Shown here piece after piece: positions 846 to 6,351 of a stretch of 25,419 nt of DNA. The notes under the pieces were generated by a model. The model saw only the letters and a list, made by a program, of their open reading frames with translations, was not told where the DNA came from and did no database searches. The position numbers and the translations under genes were made by a program. The stretch's first letter is position 1; each line of letters opens with the position of its first letter. Source of the stretch: a virus; the IMG/VR virus record IMGVR_UViG_3300035670_000091. One strand, 5' to 3'.

Positions 846-1022
846 ATGAAGCGATTCACTGTGGACTTCGAGGCTTGGACCACGCTCGAAGCTAAGGATG
901 TGGAAGAGGCATTTGCCAAAGCCCAAGGCATCATCAACGACATCGTGCACCTGTGCAAGCAGGATGGCATCGAGCTCGAGATGGTAGTAAGCGACGATGG
1001 CATCGAGCTAGACGAGGAGTAA
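846..1022 (+). CDS. hypothetical acidic protein, 58 aa (MKRFTVDFEAWTTLEAKDVEEAFAKAQ...DEE); not in ORF track
   Basis: Translated by hand; GAGGAGGT RBS just upstream; fills the gap up to repeat copy 1. Confidence 0.75.
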   Translation: MKRFTVDFEAWTTLEAKDVEEAFAKAQGIINDIVHLCKQDGIELEMVVSDDGIELDEE

Positions 1023-1028
1023 ATCCTC

Positions 1029-1104
1029 AGCGTGACCAGCAGGCATCGGAGTGCAAGCCTCCGACACGCACGACTGACCGCCGTCAGTTATCCAATGAAA
1101 GGAA
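1029..1104 (+). repeat. structured intergenic element, copy 1 (tRNA-like minihelix + hairpin + RBS)
   Basis: 65/76 ungapped identity with 1691-1766; stems GCGTG/CACGC, TCGGAG/CTCCGA and CTGAC/GTCAG. Confidence 0.9.
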
Positions 1105-1107
1105 ATT

Positions 1108-1374
1108 ATGAGCACCATCGACCTTCGCACGACTGTTGCGGACCTTATCGCTGAGCTATCCAAGCTCCCTGCTGACCAAGTTGTTGCTGTCCCTGTCCGT
1201 TGGACGTTGGACACTCTCAACGAGTGGTTCGAGGACGAGCTGATTGCGCCCTTGACCCCTGAGCAGTGGGCCGAGGTTTCTACTAAATACCTAGACGGAC
1301 TACCTAAGTTCTTCTGGGAAGACTCCGACGGCACCATGAGAGATGCCCTCGACGGATTCCTAAAGGACGAGTAA
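1108..1374 (+). CDS. hypothetical protein
   Basis: GAAAGGA RBS supplied by the repeat; TAATG coupling to next gene. Confidence 0.75.
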   Translation: MSTIDLRTTVADLIAELSKLPADQVVAVPVRWTLDTLNEWFEDELIAPLTPEQWAEVSTKYLDGLPKFFWEDSDGTMRDALDGFLKDE

Positions 1375-1685
1375 TGGAGAACGTTTACGCAGGAGCGGGA
1401 GCCTTCTACACCGTAGGTTCCGACCGCTACCCTGCCACCGTTGTGGCATGGAAAGAGTTCAAGTCGGGTGAGAACGCTGGCGAAATCCGAGAGGTAACAG
1501 TTCAGACTGATTCTTATCGAGCTGTCTCAGGACAGTTCCCAGATGCTACGTATGAGTTCACTCCGAACCCTGACGGACGAGTTCTCGTGTTCCGTAAGAA
1601 CAAGCGAGGACACTTCGTCAACGTCGGAGGTGGTTCATACCTACACGTAGGTGAACGTAGGTTCTACTACGACCCTCACTTCTAA
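1374..1685 (+). CDS. hypothetical phage protein (GSDRYPATV...G.R..Y.DP.F pattern)
   Basis: Coupled start; the motif resembles a recurrent small phage protein family of unknown function. Confidence 0.75.
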   Translation: MENVYAGAGAFYTVGSDRYPATVVAWKEFKSGENAGEIREVTVQTDSYRAVSGQFPDATYEFTPNPDGRVLVFRKNKRGHFVNVGGGSYLHVGERRFYYDPHF

Positions 1686-1690
1686 AGTGA

Positions 1691-1766
1691 AGCCTGACCA
1701 GCAGACATCGGGGTGCGAGTCTCCGACAGGCACGACTGACATCCGTCAGCCATCCTATGAAAGGAA
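1691..1766 (+). repeat. structured intergenic element, copy 2
   Basis: Stems GCCTG/CAGGC, TCGGGG/CTCCGA and CTGAC/GTCAG; compensatory change relative to copy 1. Confidence 0.9.
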
Positions 1767-1771
1767 TAACA

Positions 1772-2062
1772 ATGAGCACAATCATTGACCCCTGCGTGCA
1801 CTGTGGGCAGAGCACAGCCTTCGGCTTTGGTCGATTCGTCAACCGTATTGGGTATGACGATGGCTGGGCCTGCGCTGAGTGTATGGCTTACGAGTGCTTT
1901 GTCTGCGACGAGAAGGTTGACATGGACACCTACGTGTCGGACGAAGAAGAGTGGGGACACTACCACCCACGCTGTTTGCCCATTGAAAAGTGGGACGAAG
2001 CATCCAAGGAGTTCTTCGAGGGCATGAGCTCCGAAGAGCGATTAGCTTTTATGCTTACTTAG
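1772..2062 (+). CDS. Cys-rich putative zinc-binding protein
   Basis: ATG at 1772 follows the GAAAGGA RBS (the track start at 1757 lies inside the RBS); CVHC, CAEC, CFVC and HPRC motifs. Confidence 0.75.
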   Translation: MSTIIDPCVHCGQSTAFGFGRFVNRIGYDDGWACAECMAYECFVCDEKVDMDTYVSDEEEWGHYHPRCLPIEKWDEASKEFFEGMSSEERLAFMLT

Positions 2063-3463: not shown

Positions 3464-3506
3464 GCCCCCATGCCTTGGCTCACGCTAGGGTATGGGGGCT
3501 TTTTTT
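3464..3506 (+). terminator. intrinsic terminator between the HTH gene and the integrase
   Basis: 16-bp stem (3 G-U pairs) 3464-3479/3484-3499 followed by T7. Confidence 0.85.
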
Positions 3507-3522: not shown

Positions 3523-4638
3523 ATGGCCTATGTAACACAGCGAGGTAACCGATTCACTGGTTACTACCGAGACAATCGAGGTAAGAAATACAGCGCAGGA
3601 ACCTTTGACACCAGAGCCGAAGCATTGGCTCATGCAGAGCGAGCAGAGCAGGCAGGCGGAGAAGGCCAGTATCGCCTCACCATGCCGTTGAGCGAGTATG
3701 TCGAAACATGGGTGAAGACTGCCGACCTTCTTCCGCTCACCAAAAAGAACTACCTTTTCACTCTACGGGCTCATGTGTTGCCGTATCTTGGGAAGAAGCC
3801 TGTCGGACAAATCTCTCGTGCAGATGTCCGACAGATGTTGGACAGCTTGCGTATAGCTGGTAAATCGGCTGCGCTCCGCCGCCAAGCAAAAGCTTCGCTG
3901 GGCTCAGCGTTGCAGGAGTTGGTCGAGCTGGACCAGCTAGACATCAACCCAACCCACAAGATAAGCATCAAGTCTGTCCAAGAGACAGCCGTCAGGGACA
4001 TCATCAGTCCGACAGAGTTCAAACAAGTCATTCAATCGTTGCCGACTCCTGGCGCTCAGTTGTTTGCACAGACGCTCATAGCGACAGGACTACGCTTCGG
4101 AGAGGCCACTGAGCTACGTGTAAAGGACTTCAATCCGTCAACGCAAGAGCTATACGTCCAACGCAGAGTGACAGAGCTCGGTGCGCAGAACAATAACGGG
4201 GAACGGTTCCAAGTTATTGCGGGCACCAAGTCGGGTCGCAGAAGAATTGTGACTGTCAGTGTCGAGCTGGCCAAGCTTCTACAGGACCACATCAAAACTC
4301 TCGATGGATTCCCCGACACCCTGCTGTTCAGCAAAGCCACGACTCTCCCGCAACAAACCTTGCTGGCCCGCTCCTCTAGCAACTTCAGCGGTCACCTGCC
4401 GAAGGACTCATGGCGCAGGATGTGGAAGACAGCAGTCCAAAAGGCTGGGTTAGATTGGCTACCACGCACACACGACCTTCGTCATGCTAATGCCACAACA
4501 CTGTTGAAAAACGGAGTGGACCTGCACGAGGTGAAAGAACGACTAGGCCACAGTTCCATAAGGACTACTGAGGTCTATCTTCACAGACTGAAGCATCAAC
4601 AAAGCAAAGCTTCGCAAGCCGTAGCTGAATTCCTATAA
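3523..4638 (+). CDS. int: tyrosine integrase/recombinase
   Basis: AGGAGG RBS before ATG 3523; catalytic R (TGLRFGE), K (GTKSG), HDLRH, LGH and Y (TTEVY). Confidence 0.95.
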   Translation: MAYVTQRGNRFTGYYRDNRGKKYSAGTFDTRAEALAHAERAEQAGGEGQYRLTMPLSEYVETWVKTADLLPLTKKNYLFTLRAHVLPYLGKKPVGQISRADVRQMLDSLRIAGKSAALRRQAKASLGSALQELVELDQLDINPTHKISIKSVQETAVRDIISPTEFKQVIQSLPTPGAQLFAQTLIATGLRFGEATELRVKDFNPSTQELYVQRRVTELGAQNNNGERFQVIAGTKSGRRRIVTVSVELAKLLQDHIKTLDGFPDTLLFSKATTLPQQTLLARSSSNFSGHLPKDSWRRMWKTAVQKAGLDWLPRTHDLRHANATTLLKNGVDLHEVKERLGHSSIRTTEVYLHRLKHQQSKASQAVAEFL

Positions 4639-4683
4639 AAGGAAGAAGGCCCTTCAGCCAAGGGGGGAGCTGAAGGGCCTTCT
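4634..4683 (-). terminator. terminator hairpin between convergent arms
   Basis: Perfect 15-bp inverted repeat 4644-4658/4669-4683, followed on the - strand by TCCTTTTAT. Confidence 0.85.
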
Positions 4684-4733
4684 CGCTTATAGCGATTGAA
4701 TGAAAGGAGCTTACAACACCACTGTTGGAAGCT
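4637..4733 (-). ncRNA. predicted small regulatory RNA with an anti-Shine-Dalgarno seed
   Basis: Upstream promoter match, 5' hairpin, unpaired CCUUUCAUUCAA, small hairpin, terminator with a C-rich loop; no convincing ORF. Confidence 0.6.
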
Positions 4734-4825: not shown

Positions 4826-5496
4826 CTGTTATCAGATACTTAGTCTTCGATGGAAGTGCGAATTATCTGGGTAGTTTCAGACTCAGAAATAGGGTTTTGC
4901 ATCTCCCTCAAAGCCGATGCTCGGTCACCAAAAATAGCTGAAAGAACCCCTCCAGAGGTCTGTCTTTCGGCAGTGATTCTGATGAACTCTTTGTTCTCTT
5001 CTAGCTCCTTCAAAGACTTCACAAGCTTGAACAATCTGTCCACTTCTTGAGACACATTTGGGTCTGCGTAACCACCATTCATTTCCTCAGCAAACCGCAT
5101 GAATGCCACTCTTTGCCCCTGCATTTCAATGATTGCGGTCAATAGAGCCTTGAGCTGTTCCTTAGTTTTTACTTCCACTGGGAGGTTGAATGCACACTCA
5201 TTGTCTGGCTTGAAAGCGGGGCAGTTTGATGCCACAAAACAGGTGTTGCACTGCCTCAAAGACGACATGTTTGACTGCACAATCGGGACTTCCCGAAGCA
5301 CGTCCCGACCATCATCATCGGTCTCAACTATGGTCTTAGTTTTATACCCAAAAACAGGCATTGGAGCCCTGTCAGAGGGGTCTCTTTTGACTACTTCTGT
5401 GGGTCCTGACTTCCGCACTTCAACATCGCTGTTATCAGAAGACCCTAGGTCTAAATCCATCAAACCTGTGTATAGGGTGTCATCGCTGTTATCAGA
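4826..5496. repeat. three direct copies of CTGTTATCAGA
   Basis: Copies at 4826-4836, 5429-5439 and 5486-5496; the last two share 16 bp (CATCGCTGTTATCAGA). Confidence 0.75.
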
Positions 5497-6351
5497 TAGC
5501 ATGTCCTCGATAGAAGGCAATCCACCTTGAATAACTCGTAGCTCAGGCTTCTCTTTGTCCATCTTTGCCTCTAACTGTCGGTAGGACCAGATAGCTACCT
5601 TTGTAGCCTCTAGCGTGTCATCGGATACAAACTTATCGAAATCAAACCCGTTTTTCTCTAACAACGCCTTGTAGCGCTTGCGGGCTTGGTCTTTCATCTT
5701 CTTCGGATAACGGTTCAGCTTGGTGCCATCCCATACGATGGTCTCACCCCGACGCATGGGCGAAATCCAAGCCAGGGTCGATACGTAGTCAAACGGTATC
5801 TGACGGAGGTTATCTGGCTTTGCATACGACAGCGCCATCCATCGGGTGTCCGACACACTCTTCAGCGGCCGAATCGCCGCCGCCAAGTTGGGCACGGCAT
5901 CAACCGTGCTTCCTGGAATGCCGATGTTGACGTATTCTTCTGCCCAACGGCGAAGTAGCGGAACTCCGTAGGACTCATGCCAGACGACCCACATCTTCGG
6001 GTCGTTCAAGAATGCAGCTCTGTTCTGCTGAATCTTTGGTAGGCCCCACTTCTGAGAGTCAAACTCAAGCCAACCTTCGATGCGGTCGTAGTTGAGAGCT
6101 ACAAACTCCTCGTAGTCAGCAGCGTATTCTTCAATCTCTCGGTCACTCATCTCTGATGAGTCCACTTGAGATGCACCAGAGTCTACCCAGACTTTCATGT
6201 CTGAGAAGAAGTGCTCACCAATCAAGTAAGGCTTTGTCTTGGGTAGGCCACGCTTACGTAAGCCCCAGTAATTGAGCATGACGGACGTAACGCCATTACG
6301 CTCTAACAGAGTCCTGTTGGACGGAATCTCTACTCCACCGAAGATAATCAT
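4840..6351 (-). CDS. TGT (tRNA-guanine transglycosylase)-like domain fused to a Cys4/helical C-terminal domain
   Basis: VWVDSGA, VVWH and PFDYVSTLAW follow the order of motifs in phage TGT-like proteins; acidic linker; C-x2-C-x5-C-x8-C cluster. Confidence 0.5.
   Translation of the reverse strand: MIIFGGVEIPSNRTLLERNGVTSVMLNYWGLRKRGLPKTKPYLIGEHFFSDMKVWVDSGASQVDSSEMSDREIEEYAADYEEFVALNYDRIEGWLEFDSQKWGLPKIQQNRAAFLNDPKMWVVWHESYGVPLLRRWAEEYVNIGIPGSTVDAVPNLAAAIRPLKSVSDTRWMALSYAKPDNLRQIPFDYVSTLAWISPMRRGETIVWDGTKLNRYPKKMKDQARKRYKALLEKNGFDFDKFVSDDTLEATKVAIWSYRQLEAKMDKEKPELRVIQGGLPSIEDMLSDNSDDTLYTGLMDLDLGSSDNSDVEVRKSGPTEVVKRDPSDRAPMPVFGYKTKTIVETDDDGRDVLREVPIVQSNMSSLRQCNTCFVASNCPAFKPDNECAFNLPVEVKTKEQLKALLTAIIEMQGQRVAFMRFAEEMNGGYADPNVSQEVDRLFKLVKSLKELEENKEFIRITAERQTSGGVLSAIFGDRASALREMQNPISESETTQIIRTSIED

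What the first reader, a model, noticed from the sequence alone, without database searches (positions are those of the whole stretch)
1029..1766. Repeated tRNA-like minihelix element between accessory genes
Seen: two ungapped 76-nt copies (11 differences), each just after a stop codon. The outer stem has a compensatory change (G1032-C1067 vs C1694-G1729). The inner stem has a consistent A-U to G-U change. Most other differences fall in loops or unpaired flanks. The 5-bp and 6-bp stems are contiguous on the 3' side and capped by a 7-nt loop (UGCAAGC / UGCGAGU) resembling a tRNA T-loop (UUCGAGU). An 11-nt bulge replaces the D and anticodon arms, and the stem is followed by ACGA rather than NCCA. 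A second hairpin and the RBS follow. AGGC/GCCU vs AGAC/GUCU also co-vary, hinting at an alternative or tertiary pairing. Known: acceptor-plus-T-arm mimics are substrates for RNase P/RNase Z (tmRNA, bacterial Y RNAs, mascRNA). Inference: these are mRNA processing or stabilising signals, decoys, or a switch; I do not recognise it as a named RNA family.
Basis: partly seen in the sequence, partly recalled or inferred. Interest (0 to 1): 0.82.

Follow-up and report, generated by a model that had tools for sequence, protein, structure and literature searches.

The report
tRNA-like RNA between actinophage genes
The two repeats are copies of a small RNA fold, widespread in phages of Actinobacteria and apparently absent from RNA catalogues, that mimics the top half and "elbow" of a tRNA; it sits between early genes and most likely tells host tRNA-processing enzymes where to cut or cap the phage's multi-gene messages.

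Summary
Two 76-nt copies (1029-1104 and 1691-1766, 86% identical) lie 6-7 nt after a stop codon and ahead of a second hairpin, an RBS and an ATG.

They belong to a large family. I collected 262 distinct copies from viral contigs and cultured actinophages, including Mycobacterium phages Predator and LittleE and Streptomyces phage Joe, often 4-8 per genome on the coding strand.

Thirteen of 15 proposed pairs show compensatory changes. Three tertiary contacts that I did not use to select copies covary almost perfectly. Many relatives carry the canonical tRNA T-loop (GGUUCGAnUCC) with a D-loop-like GG. The window's UGCRAGY loop goes with AG instead. This swap matches the A-into-UGCAA T-loop contact seen in the twister-sister ribozyme crystal structure.

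So the fold is a tRNA acceptor/T-arm/elbow mimic on the sense RNA. Rfam gives only sub-threshold hits (tmRNA ends, mascRNA). The function is inferred, not shown: tRNA-style punctuation of polycistronic mRNA by RNase P and/or 3' tRNA-end enzymes. No RNA-end data could be obtained.

This scan has reported similar tRNA-like minihelices on other phage DNA before.

The parts
1030..1073 (+). Copy 1 of the tRNA-like minihelix. Outer (acceptor-like) stem 1030-1034/1065-1069. Mini D-arm bulge 1035-1045 (C1036-G1042 pair; A1038 and G1039 contact loop G1053 and C1054; G1043-C1058 and C1044-G1057 tertiary pairs). Inner (T-like) stem 1046-1051/1059-1064. T-loop UGCAAGC 1052-1058. Discriminator-like tail ACGA 1070-1073.
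   Evidence: Sequence; CM R1 hit at 62.8 bits, E 3e-12; family covariation.
1074..1087 (+). Hairpin 2 of copy 1 (CUGAC-CGCC-GUCAG), directly abutting the ACGA tail. It is not followed by a U-tract.
   Evidence: Family-wide, the spacer folds (mean dG -13 kcal/mol) and the hairpin starts 0-4 nt after the discriminator. T content after the hairpin equals background.
1097..1110 (+). RBS GAAAGGAA (1097-1104) and the ATG (1108-1110) of an 88-aa ORF (1108-1374) with no family match.
1692..1735 (+). Copy 2 of the minihelix. Outer stem 1692-1696/1727-1731. Bulge 1697-1707. Inner stem 1708-1713/1721-1726 (one G-U pair). T-loop UGCGAGU 1714-1720. Tail ACGA 1732-1735. Tertiary pair A1705-U1720 replaces G1043-C1058 of copy 1.
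   Evidence: CM hit at 67 bits, E 2.8e-13.
1736..1749 (+). Hairpin 2 of copy 2 (CUGAC-AUCC-GUCAG).
1759..1774 (+). RBS GAAAGGAA (1759-1766) and the ATG (1772-1774) of a 96-aa Cys-rich ORF (1772-2062; phrog_35699, function unknown).
846..1022 (+). Upstream cistron of copy 1 (58 aa). Its stop codon ends 7 nt before the outer stem.
   Evidence: The family-wide spacing peaks at 6-8 nt.
1374..1685 (+). Upstream cistron of copy 2 (103 aa). Its stop codon ends 6 nt before the outer stem.

Best explanation
Each repeat encodes, on the mRNA strand, a 44-nt mimic of the acceptor stem, T-arm and elbow of a tRNA.

The fold:
- A 5-bp acceptor-like stem is stacked on a 6-bp T-like stem, giving 11 bp (12 bp in some relatives).
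- A 7-nt T-loop is closed by an invariant G-C pair.
- An 11-nt strand folds as a one-base-pair mini D-arm. Its R-G dinucleotide docks on T-loop positions 2 and 3, as G18 and G19 do on psi55 and C56 in tRNA.
- The next two bases of that strand pair with the last two T-loop bases.
- A discriminator-like A-C follows the stem.

Inferred mechanism: the element lies in the polycistronic early transcript. It starts about 7 nt after one cistron's stop codon, the closest a fold can sit and still survive a terminating ribosome. It is followed within 0-4 nt by a stable hairpin and then the next cistron's RBS. Host enzymes that read the tRNA elbow and acceptor end probably cut the transcript at the element. 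RNase P on the 5' side is the most likely enzyme, possibly with a 3' tRNA-end endonuclease and the CCA-adding enzyme on the A-C tail. Each cistron would then become a separate mRNA with structured, nuclease-resistant ends: the tRNA-like cap and/or hairpin 2 at the new 5' end.

Shown: the fold, its strand, its family, its position and its tRNA likeness. Inferred: cleavage, the enzymes involved, and the effect on stability or translation.
For: 1. A sequence-only pattern with N at all variable stem positions found, in IMG/VR, 44 distinct matches in the window's register. Of these, 42 had complete stems.
2. On 120 diverse copies, 99.8% of cells are paired and 13 of 15 pairs show compensatory changes. 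The covariation score is 0.642, against 0.151 for shuffles and at most 0.133 for slid partners.
3. Three contacts not used to select copies covary across 262 distinct copies:
   - col16-col31: AU 201, GC 42, CG 14, UA 2, wobble 3.
   - col17-col30: CG 255, GC 7.
   - col9-col15: 258 of 262 Watson-Crick, in four pair types.
4. Bulge col11 and loop col26 are G+U in 205 copies and A+G in 57, with no other combination. The G+U form is the tRNA G18/psi55 arrangement. [quoted passage not shown]
5. Relatives in phages Predator, LittleE and Joe have canonical T-arms, GGUUCGAnUCC.
6. The only Rfam signals are sub-threshold hits to the tRNA-like ends of tmRNA (21 bits) and to mascRNA (20-26 bits).
7. 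Strand: G-U 29 vs A-C 4 in the inner stem. All copies in a genome lie on the coding strand.
8. Position: the upstream stop ends 6-8 nt before the stem in 116 of 262 copies. The start codon lies 30-59 nt after the discriminator in 187 of 239. Hairpin 2 begins 0-4 nt after it.
9. Downstream genes are unrelated small early genes, so the element acts on expression in general rather than on one pathway.
10. Precedents read here: plant mitochondrial t-elements direct RNase P/Z cuts that form mRNA ends (PMC1920247). In M. smegmatis the tRNA-like module of YrlA is cut by RNase P and gains CA on an encoded C (PMC4201824), which parallels the conserved A-C tail.
Against: - No transcript ends or cleavage data exist for any copy.
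- The stack is 11 bp in most copies, not 12. The acceptor-like stem is 5 bp, whereas the YrlA paper stresses a 7-bp acceptor stem as a major RNase P determinant.
- The tail is A-C-G-A, A-C-U-G or A-C-U-C, not RCCA.
- The base before the stem is A in 73% of copies. From my own knowledge, E. coli RNase P prefers U at -1.
- An RNase P cut would leave the upstream cistron with an unprotected 3' end only about 7 nt past its stop.
- About 20 conserved unpaired bases in 44 nt is more than a mere processing signal would seem to need. However, elbow mimicry explains most of them.
Confidence: 0.5

Rival explanations
1. An uncleaved insulator or stabiliser. The compact tRNA-like fold plus hairpin 2 is never cut. 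It acts as a roadblock to exonucleases and Rho, uncouples translation of neighbouring cistrons, and keeps the following RBS in a defined, open context.
For: - The spacing of 6-8 nt after the stop codon lets the fold persist next to a terminating ribosome.
- Hairpin 2 is stable and followed by an exposed RBS.
- In LittleE the element sits in a 5' UTR with no same-strand cistron upstream.
- tRNA folds are intrinsically nuclease-resistant, as argued for YrlA in PMC4201824.
Against: An ordinary GC-rich hairpin would do this job. It does not explain why the T-loop, the G19-C56-like pair, the G18/U55-like contact and the discriminator-like A-C are conserved in the way elbow- and end-reading enzymes need.
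Confidence: 0.2
2. A binding site for a trans-acting factor other than the processing enzymes. Candidates are the ribosome (elbow contact with the L1 stalk or E site acting as a translation enhancer or standby site), a T-loop modification enzyme acting as a chaperone, or a phage-encoded regulator.
For: - The element always lies 30-59 nt upstream of a start codon with a strong RBS.
- In the window the duplicated block includes the RBS and the first codons.
- Other actinophages carry start-associated repeats of unknown role, SAS/ESAS (PMC7302621).
Against: - No protein family co-occurs with the element among the neighbouring genes examined.
- The element spans phages of Mycobacterium, Streptomyces, Gordonia, Microbacterium, Bifidobacterium and Actinomyces. 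This favours a universal host factor.
- Hairpin 2 separates the element from the RBS.
Confidence: 0.12
3. A self-cleaving ribozyme that reuses the twister-sister T-loop/adenine module.
For: - The 11-mer GGUGCAAGUCC is identical to SL4 of the crystallised twister-sister ribozyme.
- There is a high density of conserved unpaired bases.
- Small ribozymes are common in phage intergenic regions (own knowledge).
Against: - There is no Rfam hit to twister-sister or any other ribozyme at E<=10.
- The topology differs. There is no second strand opposite the bulge to carry a C-A cleavage site, and no P1/P2/P5 arrangement.
- Most family members have an ordinary tRNA T-loop instead.
- I also could not thread an HDV-like fold by eye.
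Confidence: 0.05
4. A decoy for host tRNA-targeting defences or toxins, or another trans-acting small RNA released from the mRNA.
For: tRNA mimicry. There are many copies per genome in the earliest-expressed region.
Against: - There is no anticodon arm, the usual target of anticodon nucleases.
- The acceptor sequence varies freely through covariation.
- The fixed register with stop codons and RBSs points to a cis role.
Confidence: 0.05
5. A DNA-level element: a promoter, operator, or recombination hotspot for gene-cassette shuffling.
For: - It is repeated in intergenic DNA.
- In the window, similarity starts exactly at the element and runs into the first codons of two otherwise unrelated genes. 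Such repeats could mediate illegitimate recombination as a side effect.
Against: - Compensatory changes in stems and tertiary pairs, together with the G-U/A-C asymmetry, cannot be explained by double-stranded DNA recognition.
- There is no sigma-70-like promoter at the copies.
- Hairpin 2 is not a terminator, whereas this phage's real terminators do have U-tracts (3464-3499 and 4643-4684).
Confidence: 0.03

Closest known systems
t-elements of plant mitochondria (Forner et al. 2007, PMC1920247)
   Same: These are tRNA-like folds with a conserved GGTTCRANYCC T-arm, embedded in mRNA precursors next to coding regions. Their borders coincide with mRNA 5'/3' ends made by RNase P and RNase Z, and non-encoded C/A is added to the released element.
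   Different: They are organellar and few per genome, usually non-canonical cloverleaves rather than a 44-nt anticodon-less minihelix. No homology is implied. Cleavage is mapped there but not here.
mascRNA / MEN-beta tRNA-like RNA (Rfam RF01684)
   Same: A cis tRNA-like module whose RNase P/Z processing creates the end of the upstream RNA. It is among the best Rfam matches to canonical-loop copies (20-26 bits).
   Different: The scores are well below the gathering threshold of 42.5. mascRNA is vertebrate and nuclear, keeps an anticodon-like arm, and occurs once per transcript.
tRNA-like domain of tmRNA (RF00023)
   Same: An acceptor stem plus T-arm with a reduced D-loop analogue. One Predator copy aligns to the two ends of the tmRNA model (21 bits, E 5e-5).
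   Different: Below the gathering threshold (47). There is no mRNA-like domain, pseudoknots or G3-U70. ARAGORN calls no tmRNA.
tRNA-like module of Mycobacterium smegmatis YrlA (Chen et al. 2014, PMC4201824)
   Same: An actinobacterial RNA whose tRNA-like part is cut by RNase P in vivo and in vitro, and receives CA on an encoded C. This shows the host machinery accepts such mimics.
   Different: YrlA is a trans-acting Y RNA bound by the Ro60 orthologue. It has D, T and anticodon-like arms and a 7-bp acceptor stem. There is no Rfam YrlA hit here.
SL4 T-loop of the twister-sister ribozyme (PDB 5Y87; Zheng et al. 2017, PMC5660989)
   Same: The closing pair and loop are identical, G-UGCAAGU-C. In the crystal, an adenine from a G-C-A-A strand intercalates between loop A33 and A34 and pairs with G31, and G35 and U36 are flipped out. 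This explains the window's A1038/G1053 pairing and why the last two loop bases are free to pair with the bulge.
   Different: Only the module is shared. The ribozyme's L1 cleavage strand and its P1-P2-P3-P5 architecture are absent, and RF02681 gives no hit.
RNase III processing sites of the phage T7 early operon (own knowledge)
   Same: Conserved structured elements between early cistrons of one polycistronic phage transcript. A host endonuclease cuts there and leaves stabilising hairpins.
   Different: A different fold (long irregular hairpin), a different enzyme and a different host phylum.
Start-associated and other intergenic repeats of actinophages (SAS/ESAS, cluster EC/EG/EI motifs; PMC7302621)
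   Same: Cluster-wide, same-strand repeats in short gaps just upstream of start codons of non-structural genes, with function unknown.
   Different: Those are 13-30-bp sequence motifs or simple inverted repeats specific to one cluster. This element is a covarying tRNA-like fold shared across many clusters and host genera.

Membership tests
tRNA (RF00005) | Cloverleaf with an anticodon arm; detected by ARAGORN or the Rfam tRNA model | tested here: not met
   ARAGORN finds none in the window and almost none in 30 loci rich in copies. There is no RF00005 hit at E<=10. Only 11 nt lie between the acceptor and T stems.
tRNA-like top half (acceptor/T-arm/elbow mimic; structural class) | 7-nt T-loop U-N-C-R-A-N-N closed by a G-C pair (G53-C61, U54, C56, R57, A58) | tested here: met
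   In the A1 copies, which were found by a pattern that fixed only the loop letters GUGCRAGY, the G24-C32 closing pair is present in 42 of 42. Canonical UUCGAGU loops occur in relatives found by the CM rather than by pattern.
tRNA-like top half (acceptor/T-arm/elbow mimic; structural class) | D-loop-like purines contacting T-loop positions 55 and 56 | tested here: met
   By covariation only. col11/col26 is G+U in 205 copies and A+G in 57, with nothing else. col12 is G and col27 is C in all 262, but both were fixed by my filter. No 3D data.
tRNA-like top half (acceptor/T-arm/elbow mimic; structural class) | Acceptor and T stems contiguous on the 3' side, giving a 12-bp coaxial stack, followed by discriminator and CCA | tested here: inconclusive
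   The stems are contiguous, but the stack is 11 bp in most copies and 12 bp in a few with a G2-C43 pair. The tail is A-C-N-N (A 244/262, C 257/262); ACCA occurs in only 3 copies.
Processing signal for RNase P / 3' tRNase (functional class of t-elements, mascRNA) | RNA ends at the borders of the element; cleavage by the enzymes | not testable with these tools
Twister-sister ribozyme (RF02681) | P1-L1-P2 with conserved L1 strands that include the C-A cleavage site, a multi-helix junction, and the SL4 T-loop | tested here: not met
   Only SL4 matches. There is no Rfam hit. No strand lies opposite the bulge.
tmRNA (RF00023) / mascRNA (RF01684) | Score at or above the Rfam gathering threshold | tested here: not met
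   21 bits vs 47, and 20-26 bits vs 42.5, only for canonical-loop relatives. Nothing for the window copies.
Intrinsic terminator | GC-rich hairpin followed by a U-tract | tested here: not met
   T content in the 8 nt after hairpin 2 is 15%, against 16% background; 0.9% of copies have at least 5 T. The scan calls none on the + strand at the copies.
Sigma-70-type promoter | -35 and -10 hexamers with 16-18 nt spacing | tested here: not met
   No promoter-like site at either copy.

The most novel reading that the evidence does not exclude
Phages of Actinobacteria use a dedicated, self-contained 44-nt tRNA-elbow mimic as a general punctuation mark for their early polycistronic mRNAs. Host RNase P, and the CCA-adding enzyme acting on the encoded A-C, would convert each cistron into its own mRNA carrying a tRNA-like cap. 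This would be a bacterial-virus counterpart of the mitochondrial tRNA-punctuation model. The two interchangeable elbow solutions (G/UUCGA and A/UGCAA) would show how a T-loop receptor can be rewired.
Probability: 0.4. Interest if true: 0.85.

Novelty: new variant of a known kind. Interest (0 to 1): 0.72.

Why it matters
How phage early operons are processed is almost unknown outside E. coli phages. If this reading is right, it would give a mechanism for a feature seen in hundreds of actinophage genomes: the ~95-nt gaps between early genes that are left unannotated in model and biotechnologically used phages such as Joe, Predator and LittleE.

It would extend tRNA punctuation from organelles to bacterial viruses. 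It would also offer a compact, portable cistron separator for synthetic operons in Streptomyces and Mycobacterium.

Structurally, the family is a natural experiment on the T-loop. It has 262 variants with two alternative intercalating-base solutions and an extra 2-bp clamp. That is useful for RNA 3D-motif modelling.

In practice, a covariance model for this family would improve phage annotation and stop spurious ORF and tRNA calls over these sites.

Tried and rejected
- The whole genome of the window is not held.
- There is no close relative of the window in the phage collection.
- Rfam at E<=10 gave nothing at the window copies.
- Single-sequence folding z-scores were unremarkable.
- The supplements of the 10,006-csRNA catalogue (PMC10690425) are not held. 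I therefore could not check whether the motif is among its unnamed candidates.
- Literature searches for the motif sequence, for tRNA-like elements in mycobacteriophages, and in the Joe and Microbacterium phage papers found no description.
- Considered and rejected:
  - twister-sister membership;
  - HDV-like and pistol-like folds (threaded by eye only);
  - riboswitch (too many copies, in front of unrelated genes);
  - attP or a tRNA-gene fragment (the 5' strand pairs, copies are multiple, and there is a register with the RBS);
  - terminator and promoter.
- phiC31 itself lacks the element.
- The genome-contig scan found real copies only in a Nonomuraea and a Sanguibacter assembly, so the element is rare in host chromosomes.
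Full report
**The observation.** The window carries exactly two copies of a 76-nt repeat, 1029-1104 and 1691-1766, ungapped and 86% identical. Sub-motifs of it occur nowhere else in the window, while shuffles expect 0.05-0.22 matches. Each copy starts 6-7 nt after the stop codon of a small + strand ORF (TAA 1020-1022; TAA 1683-1685). Each is followed by a short hairpin, the RBS GAAAGGAA and an ATG (1108; 1772). Folding either copy alone is unremarkable (z about -1.1 to -1.5). Two copies could therefore not settle whether this is a structure.

**The setting.** The + strand operon (1 to about 3456) consists of small genes of unknown function. It also holds a DenV-like glycosylase, a WhiB-like protein and an Xis-like protein. 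It ends at a canonical U-tract terminator (3464-3499) and is followed by a tyrosine integrase. The minus strand holds replication genes and a DpdA-like transglycosylase. WhiB points to an actinobacterial host. No whole genome is held and no close phage relative exists in the collection.

**A large family.**
- A first exact pattern from the 3' half found one other viral contig. It held two copies in which all three helices had changed by compensatory substitutions.
- A second pattern fixed only unpaired bases and the two terminal pairs, leaving the other stem positions as N. It hit more than 100 IMG/VR stretches.
- Of 44 distinct matches in the window's register, 42 had complete outer and inner stems. 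That is an unbiased test of the fold.
- On these 42 copies, 9 of 13 pairs show compensatory changes. The covariation score is 0.456, against 0.132 for shuffles and at most 0.086 for slid partners.
- A covariance model built from them found further, more divergent copies in the same contigs, always on one strand and often in arrays of 4-5 within 3 kb.

**Cultured phages and hosts.**
- BLAST and the model place the element in Actinomyces phage xhp1, Bifidobacterium phages BP677P1-8, Microbacterium phages Musetta and Welcome, and Mycobacterium phages Predator and LittleE.
- A Predator copy used as query hit 184 phage records: 113 Streptomyces, 34 Mycobacterium and 9 Gordonia.
- Streptomyces phage Joe has 7-8 copies in the gaps of its early operon; phiC31 has none.
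- None of these sites is annotated.
- In bacterial genomes the strict pattern found real copies only in a Nonomuraea and a Sanguibacter assembly.
- The family therefore belongs to phages of Actinomycetota.

**Why it is tRNA-like.** The divergent copies settle this.
- Many have the canonical tRNA T-arm GGUUCGAnUCC, and their bulge reads A-C-Y-G-G-C-A-G-A-C-A, with a GG as in a D-loop.
- Copies with the window's UGCRAGY loop read A-C-Y-A-G-C-A instead.
- Among 262 distinct copies collected by a structural scan, bulge col11 and loop col26 are G+U in 205 and A+G in 57, with no other combination.
- That is the tRNA G18/psi55 contact, with an alternative solution.
- The alternative is seen directly in the twister-sister ribozyme crystal structure. 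Its SL4 (G-UGCAAGU-C) is identical to the window's loop. There, an adenine from a G-C-A-A strand intercalates between the fourth and fifth loop bases and pairs with the loop G. The last two loop bases are flipped out.
- In this family those two flipped-out bases pair with the bulge. col16-col31 is AU 201, GC 42, CG 14, UA 2 and wobble 3. col17-col30 is CG 255 and GC 7.
- A further pair, col9-col15 (258 of 262 Watson-Crick, four types), closes a 5-nt mini D-loop.
- None of these three contacts was used to select copies.
- On a 120-sequence alignment the full structure is 99.8% paired, with 13 of 15 pairs compensatory and a covariation score of 0.642 against 0.151. Paired percentages for the two main stems are partly by construction in that set. 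The tertiary pairs and the earlier 42 of 44 result are not.

**Strand and rivals at the DNA level.**
- G-U outnumbers A-C by 29 to 4 in the inner stem, and all copies lie on the coding strand. The structure therefore forms in the sense RNA.
- No sigma-70-like promoter lies at the copies.
- Hairpin 2 is not followed by U-tracts: 15% T against 16% background.

**Position.**
- Across the family, the upstream stop codon ends 6-8 nt before the outer stem in 116 of 262 copies, and 5-13 nt before it in 171.
- The base before the stem is A in 73%.
- The stem is followed by A (244 of 262) and C (257 of 262).
- A stable hairpin (mean -13 kcal/mol) begins 0-4 nt later.
- The start codon lies 30-59 nt after the discriminator in 187 of 239 copies.
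- ACGA is the tail of one large subfamily, including the window. Streptomyces phages have ACUG or ACUC.
- The downstream genes are unrelated to one another and mostly of unknown function.
- In LittleE the element lies in the 5' UTR of a divergently transcribed gene pair, so an upstream cistron is not required.

**Comparison with known families.** Rfam gives nothing for the window. For canonical-loop relatives it gives only sub-threshold hits: the two ends of the tmRNA model (21 bits) and mascRNA (20-26 bits). ARAGORN does not call the elements. The element is therefore not a tRNA, tmRNA, mascRNA, Y RNA or twister-sister ribozyme. It shares the tRNA top half with the first four and one 3D module with the last.

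I found no description of it in these sources:
- the Joe paper;
- the Microbacterium phage survey, which lists other intergenic repeats;
- searches for the motif sequence;
- papers linking tRNA-like elements with mycobacteriophages.

A catalogue of 8,495 unnamed candidate structured RNAs from IMG/VR (PMC10690425) may well include it. Its tables are not held.

**Mechanism (inferred).** The conserved features are exactly those read by enzymes that recognise the tRNA elbow and acceptor end: the coaxial acceptor/T stack, the G19-C56-like outer face, the discriminator-like A and the following C. Two precedents were read here. Plant mitochondrial t-elements direct RNase P and RNase Z cuts that create mRNA ends. 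In M. smegmatis the tRNA-like module of YrlA is cut by RNase P and has CA added to an encoded C.

I therefore favour, at about 50%, tRNA-style punctuation. Host RNase P and/or a 3' tRNA-end nuclease would cut the polycistronic early RNA at the element. The minihelix and the abutting hairpin 2 would then serve as protective ends. The 6-8 nt spacing from the stop codon fits a fold placed as close as possible to a terminating ribosome without being melted; that point rests on my own knowledge of ribosome footprints.

Several observations weigh against this. The stack is 11 bp rather than 12. The acceptor-like stem is only 5 bp. A is preferred at -1. There is no CCA. No end-mapping data exist.

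The main rival (about 20%) is that the fold works uncut, as an insulator or stabiliser. The remaining rivals, with confidence:
- a trans-factor or ribosome-binding role (0.12);
- a new ribozyme (0.05);
- a decoy (0.05);
- a DNA-level role (0.03).

**Earlier notes of this scan.** The scan has already reported tRNA-like minihelices between phage genes on other DNA. These include one in an oral actinobacterial phage and one with a TGCAANT loop, which may belong to the same family. Those notes are not independent evidence. They gave me the t-element paper, which I read. Another first-stage note on this same stretch pointed out the shared N-terminus. The alignment confirms that similarity begins exactly at the element and runs through the RBS into the first six or so codons.

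**Verdict.** The family is large and apparently uncatalogued, and its function is still to be shown. It is a new variant of a known kind (tRNA-like cis elements in mRNAs). Interest 0.72.

Noticed in passing
window 1029-1130 vs 1691-1795: The duplicated block is not just the RNA element. Similarity starts at the element and continues through hairpin 2, the RBS, the ATG and about the first six codons (MSTI.D) of two otherwise unrelated ORFs, then stops. This suggests the element with its 5' UTR moves or recombines as a cassette head.
   Followed up: partly
window 4840-6351 (-): A 503-aa protein matching phrog_887, 'queuine tRNA-ribosyltransferase' (E 1e-55). It is probably a DpdA-like enzyme for 7-deazaguanine modification of phage DNA.
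   Followed up: no
window 3464-3499 (+) and 4643-4684: A strong canonical U-tract terminator lies between the Xis-like gene and the integrase gene. The listed TTG start of the integrase ORF (3475) lies inside it, so the real start is probably the ATG near 3523. A bidirectional terminator sits where the + and - strand gene blocks converge.
   Followed up: no
L108 (Mycobacterium phage LittleE, record 25943-25990, minus strand): The element lies upstream of the reverse-oriented genes 34-33 inserted among tail genes. It overlaps the annotated start of gene 35 on the other strand, so that start call may be too long.
   Followed up: no
L111 (phiC31) 40702-40779: phiC31 lacks the minihelix. Its genuine tRNA-Thr gene, however, ends 1 nt before the start codon of gp29, a possible case of true tRNA punctuation in a related phage group.
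   Followed up: no
L166:7916-7963, L160:4390-4437, L191:3179-3226, L120:3278-3325: A minority of copies have a sixth outer-stem pair (G2-C43), giving a 12-bp stack as in tRNA, with the A-C tail shifted by one base.
   Followed up: partly
L113:6613-6706 (-), L199:6976-7058 (-), L120:6409-6496: ARAGORN makes odd over-long tRNA calls (83-94 nt, one with a 4-base anticodon) in loci rich in the element. At least the L113 call overlaps a minihelix and is probably spurious.
   Followed up: no
L107 (Microbacterium phage Musetta) record 1357-1404 and 61152-61199: The element lies inside the 3.8-kb direct terminal repeat, so it is present twice. Its loop is CGCGAGU (C at T-loop position 1), an exception to the invariant U54-like base.
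   Followed up: no
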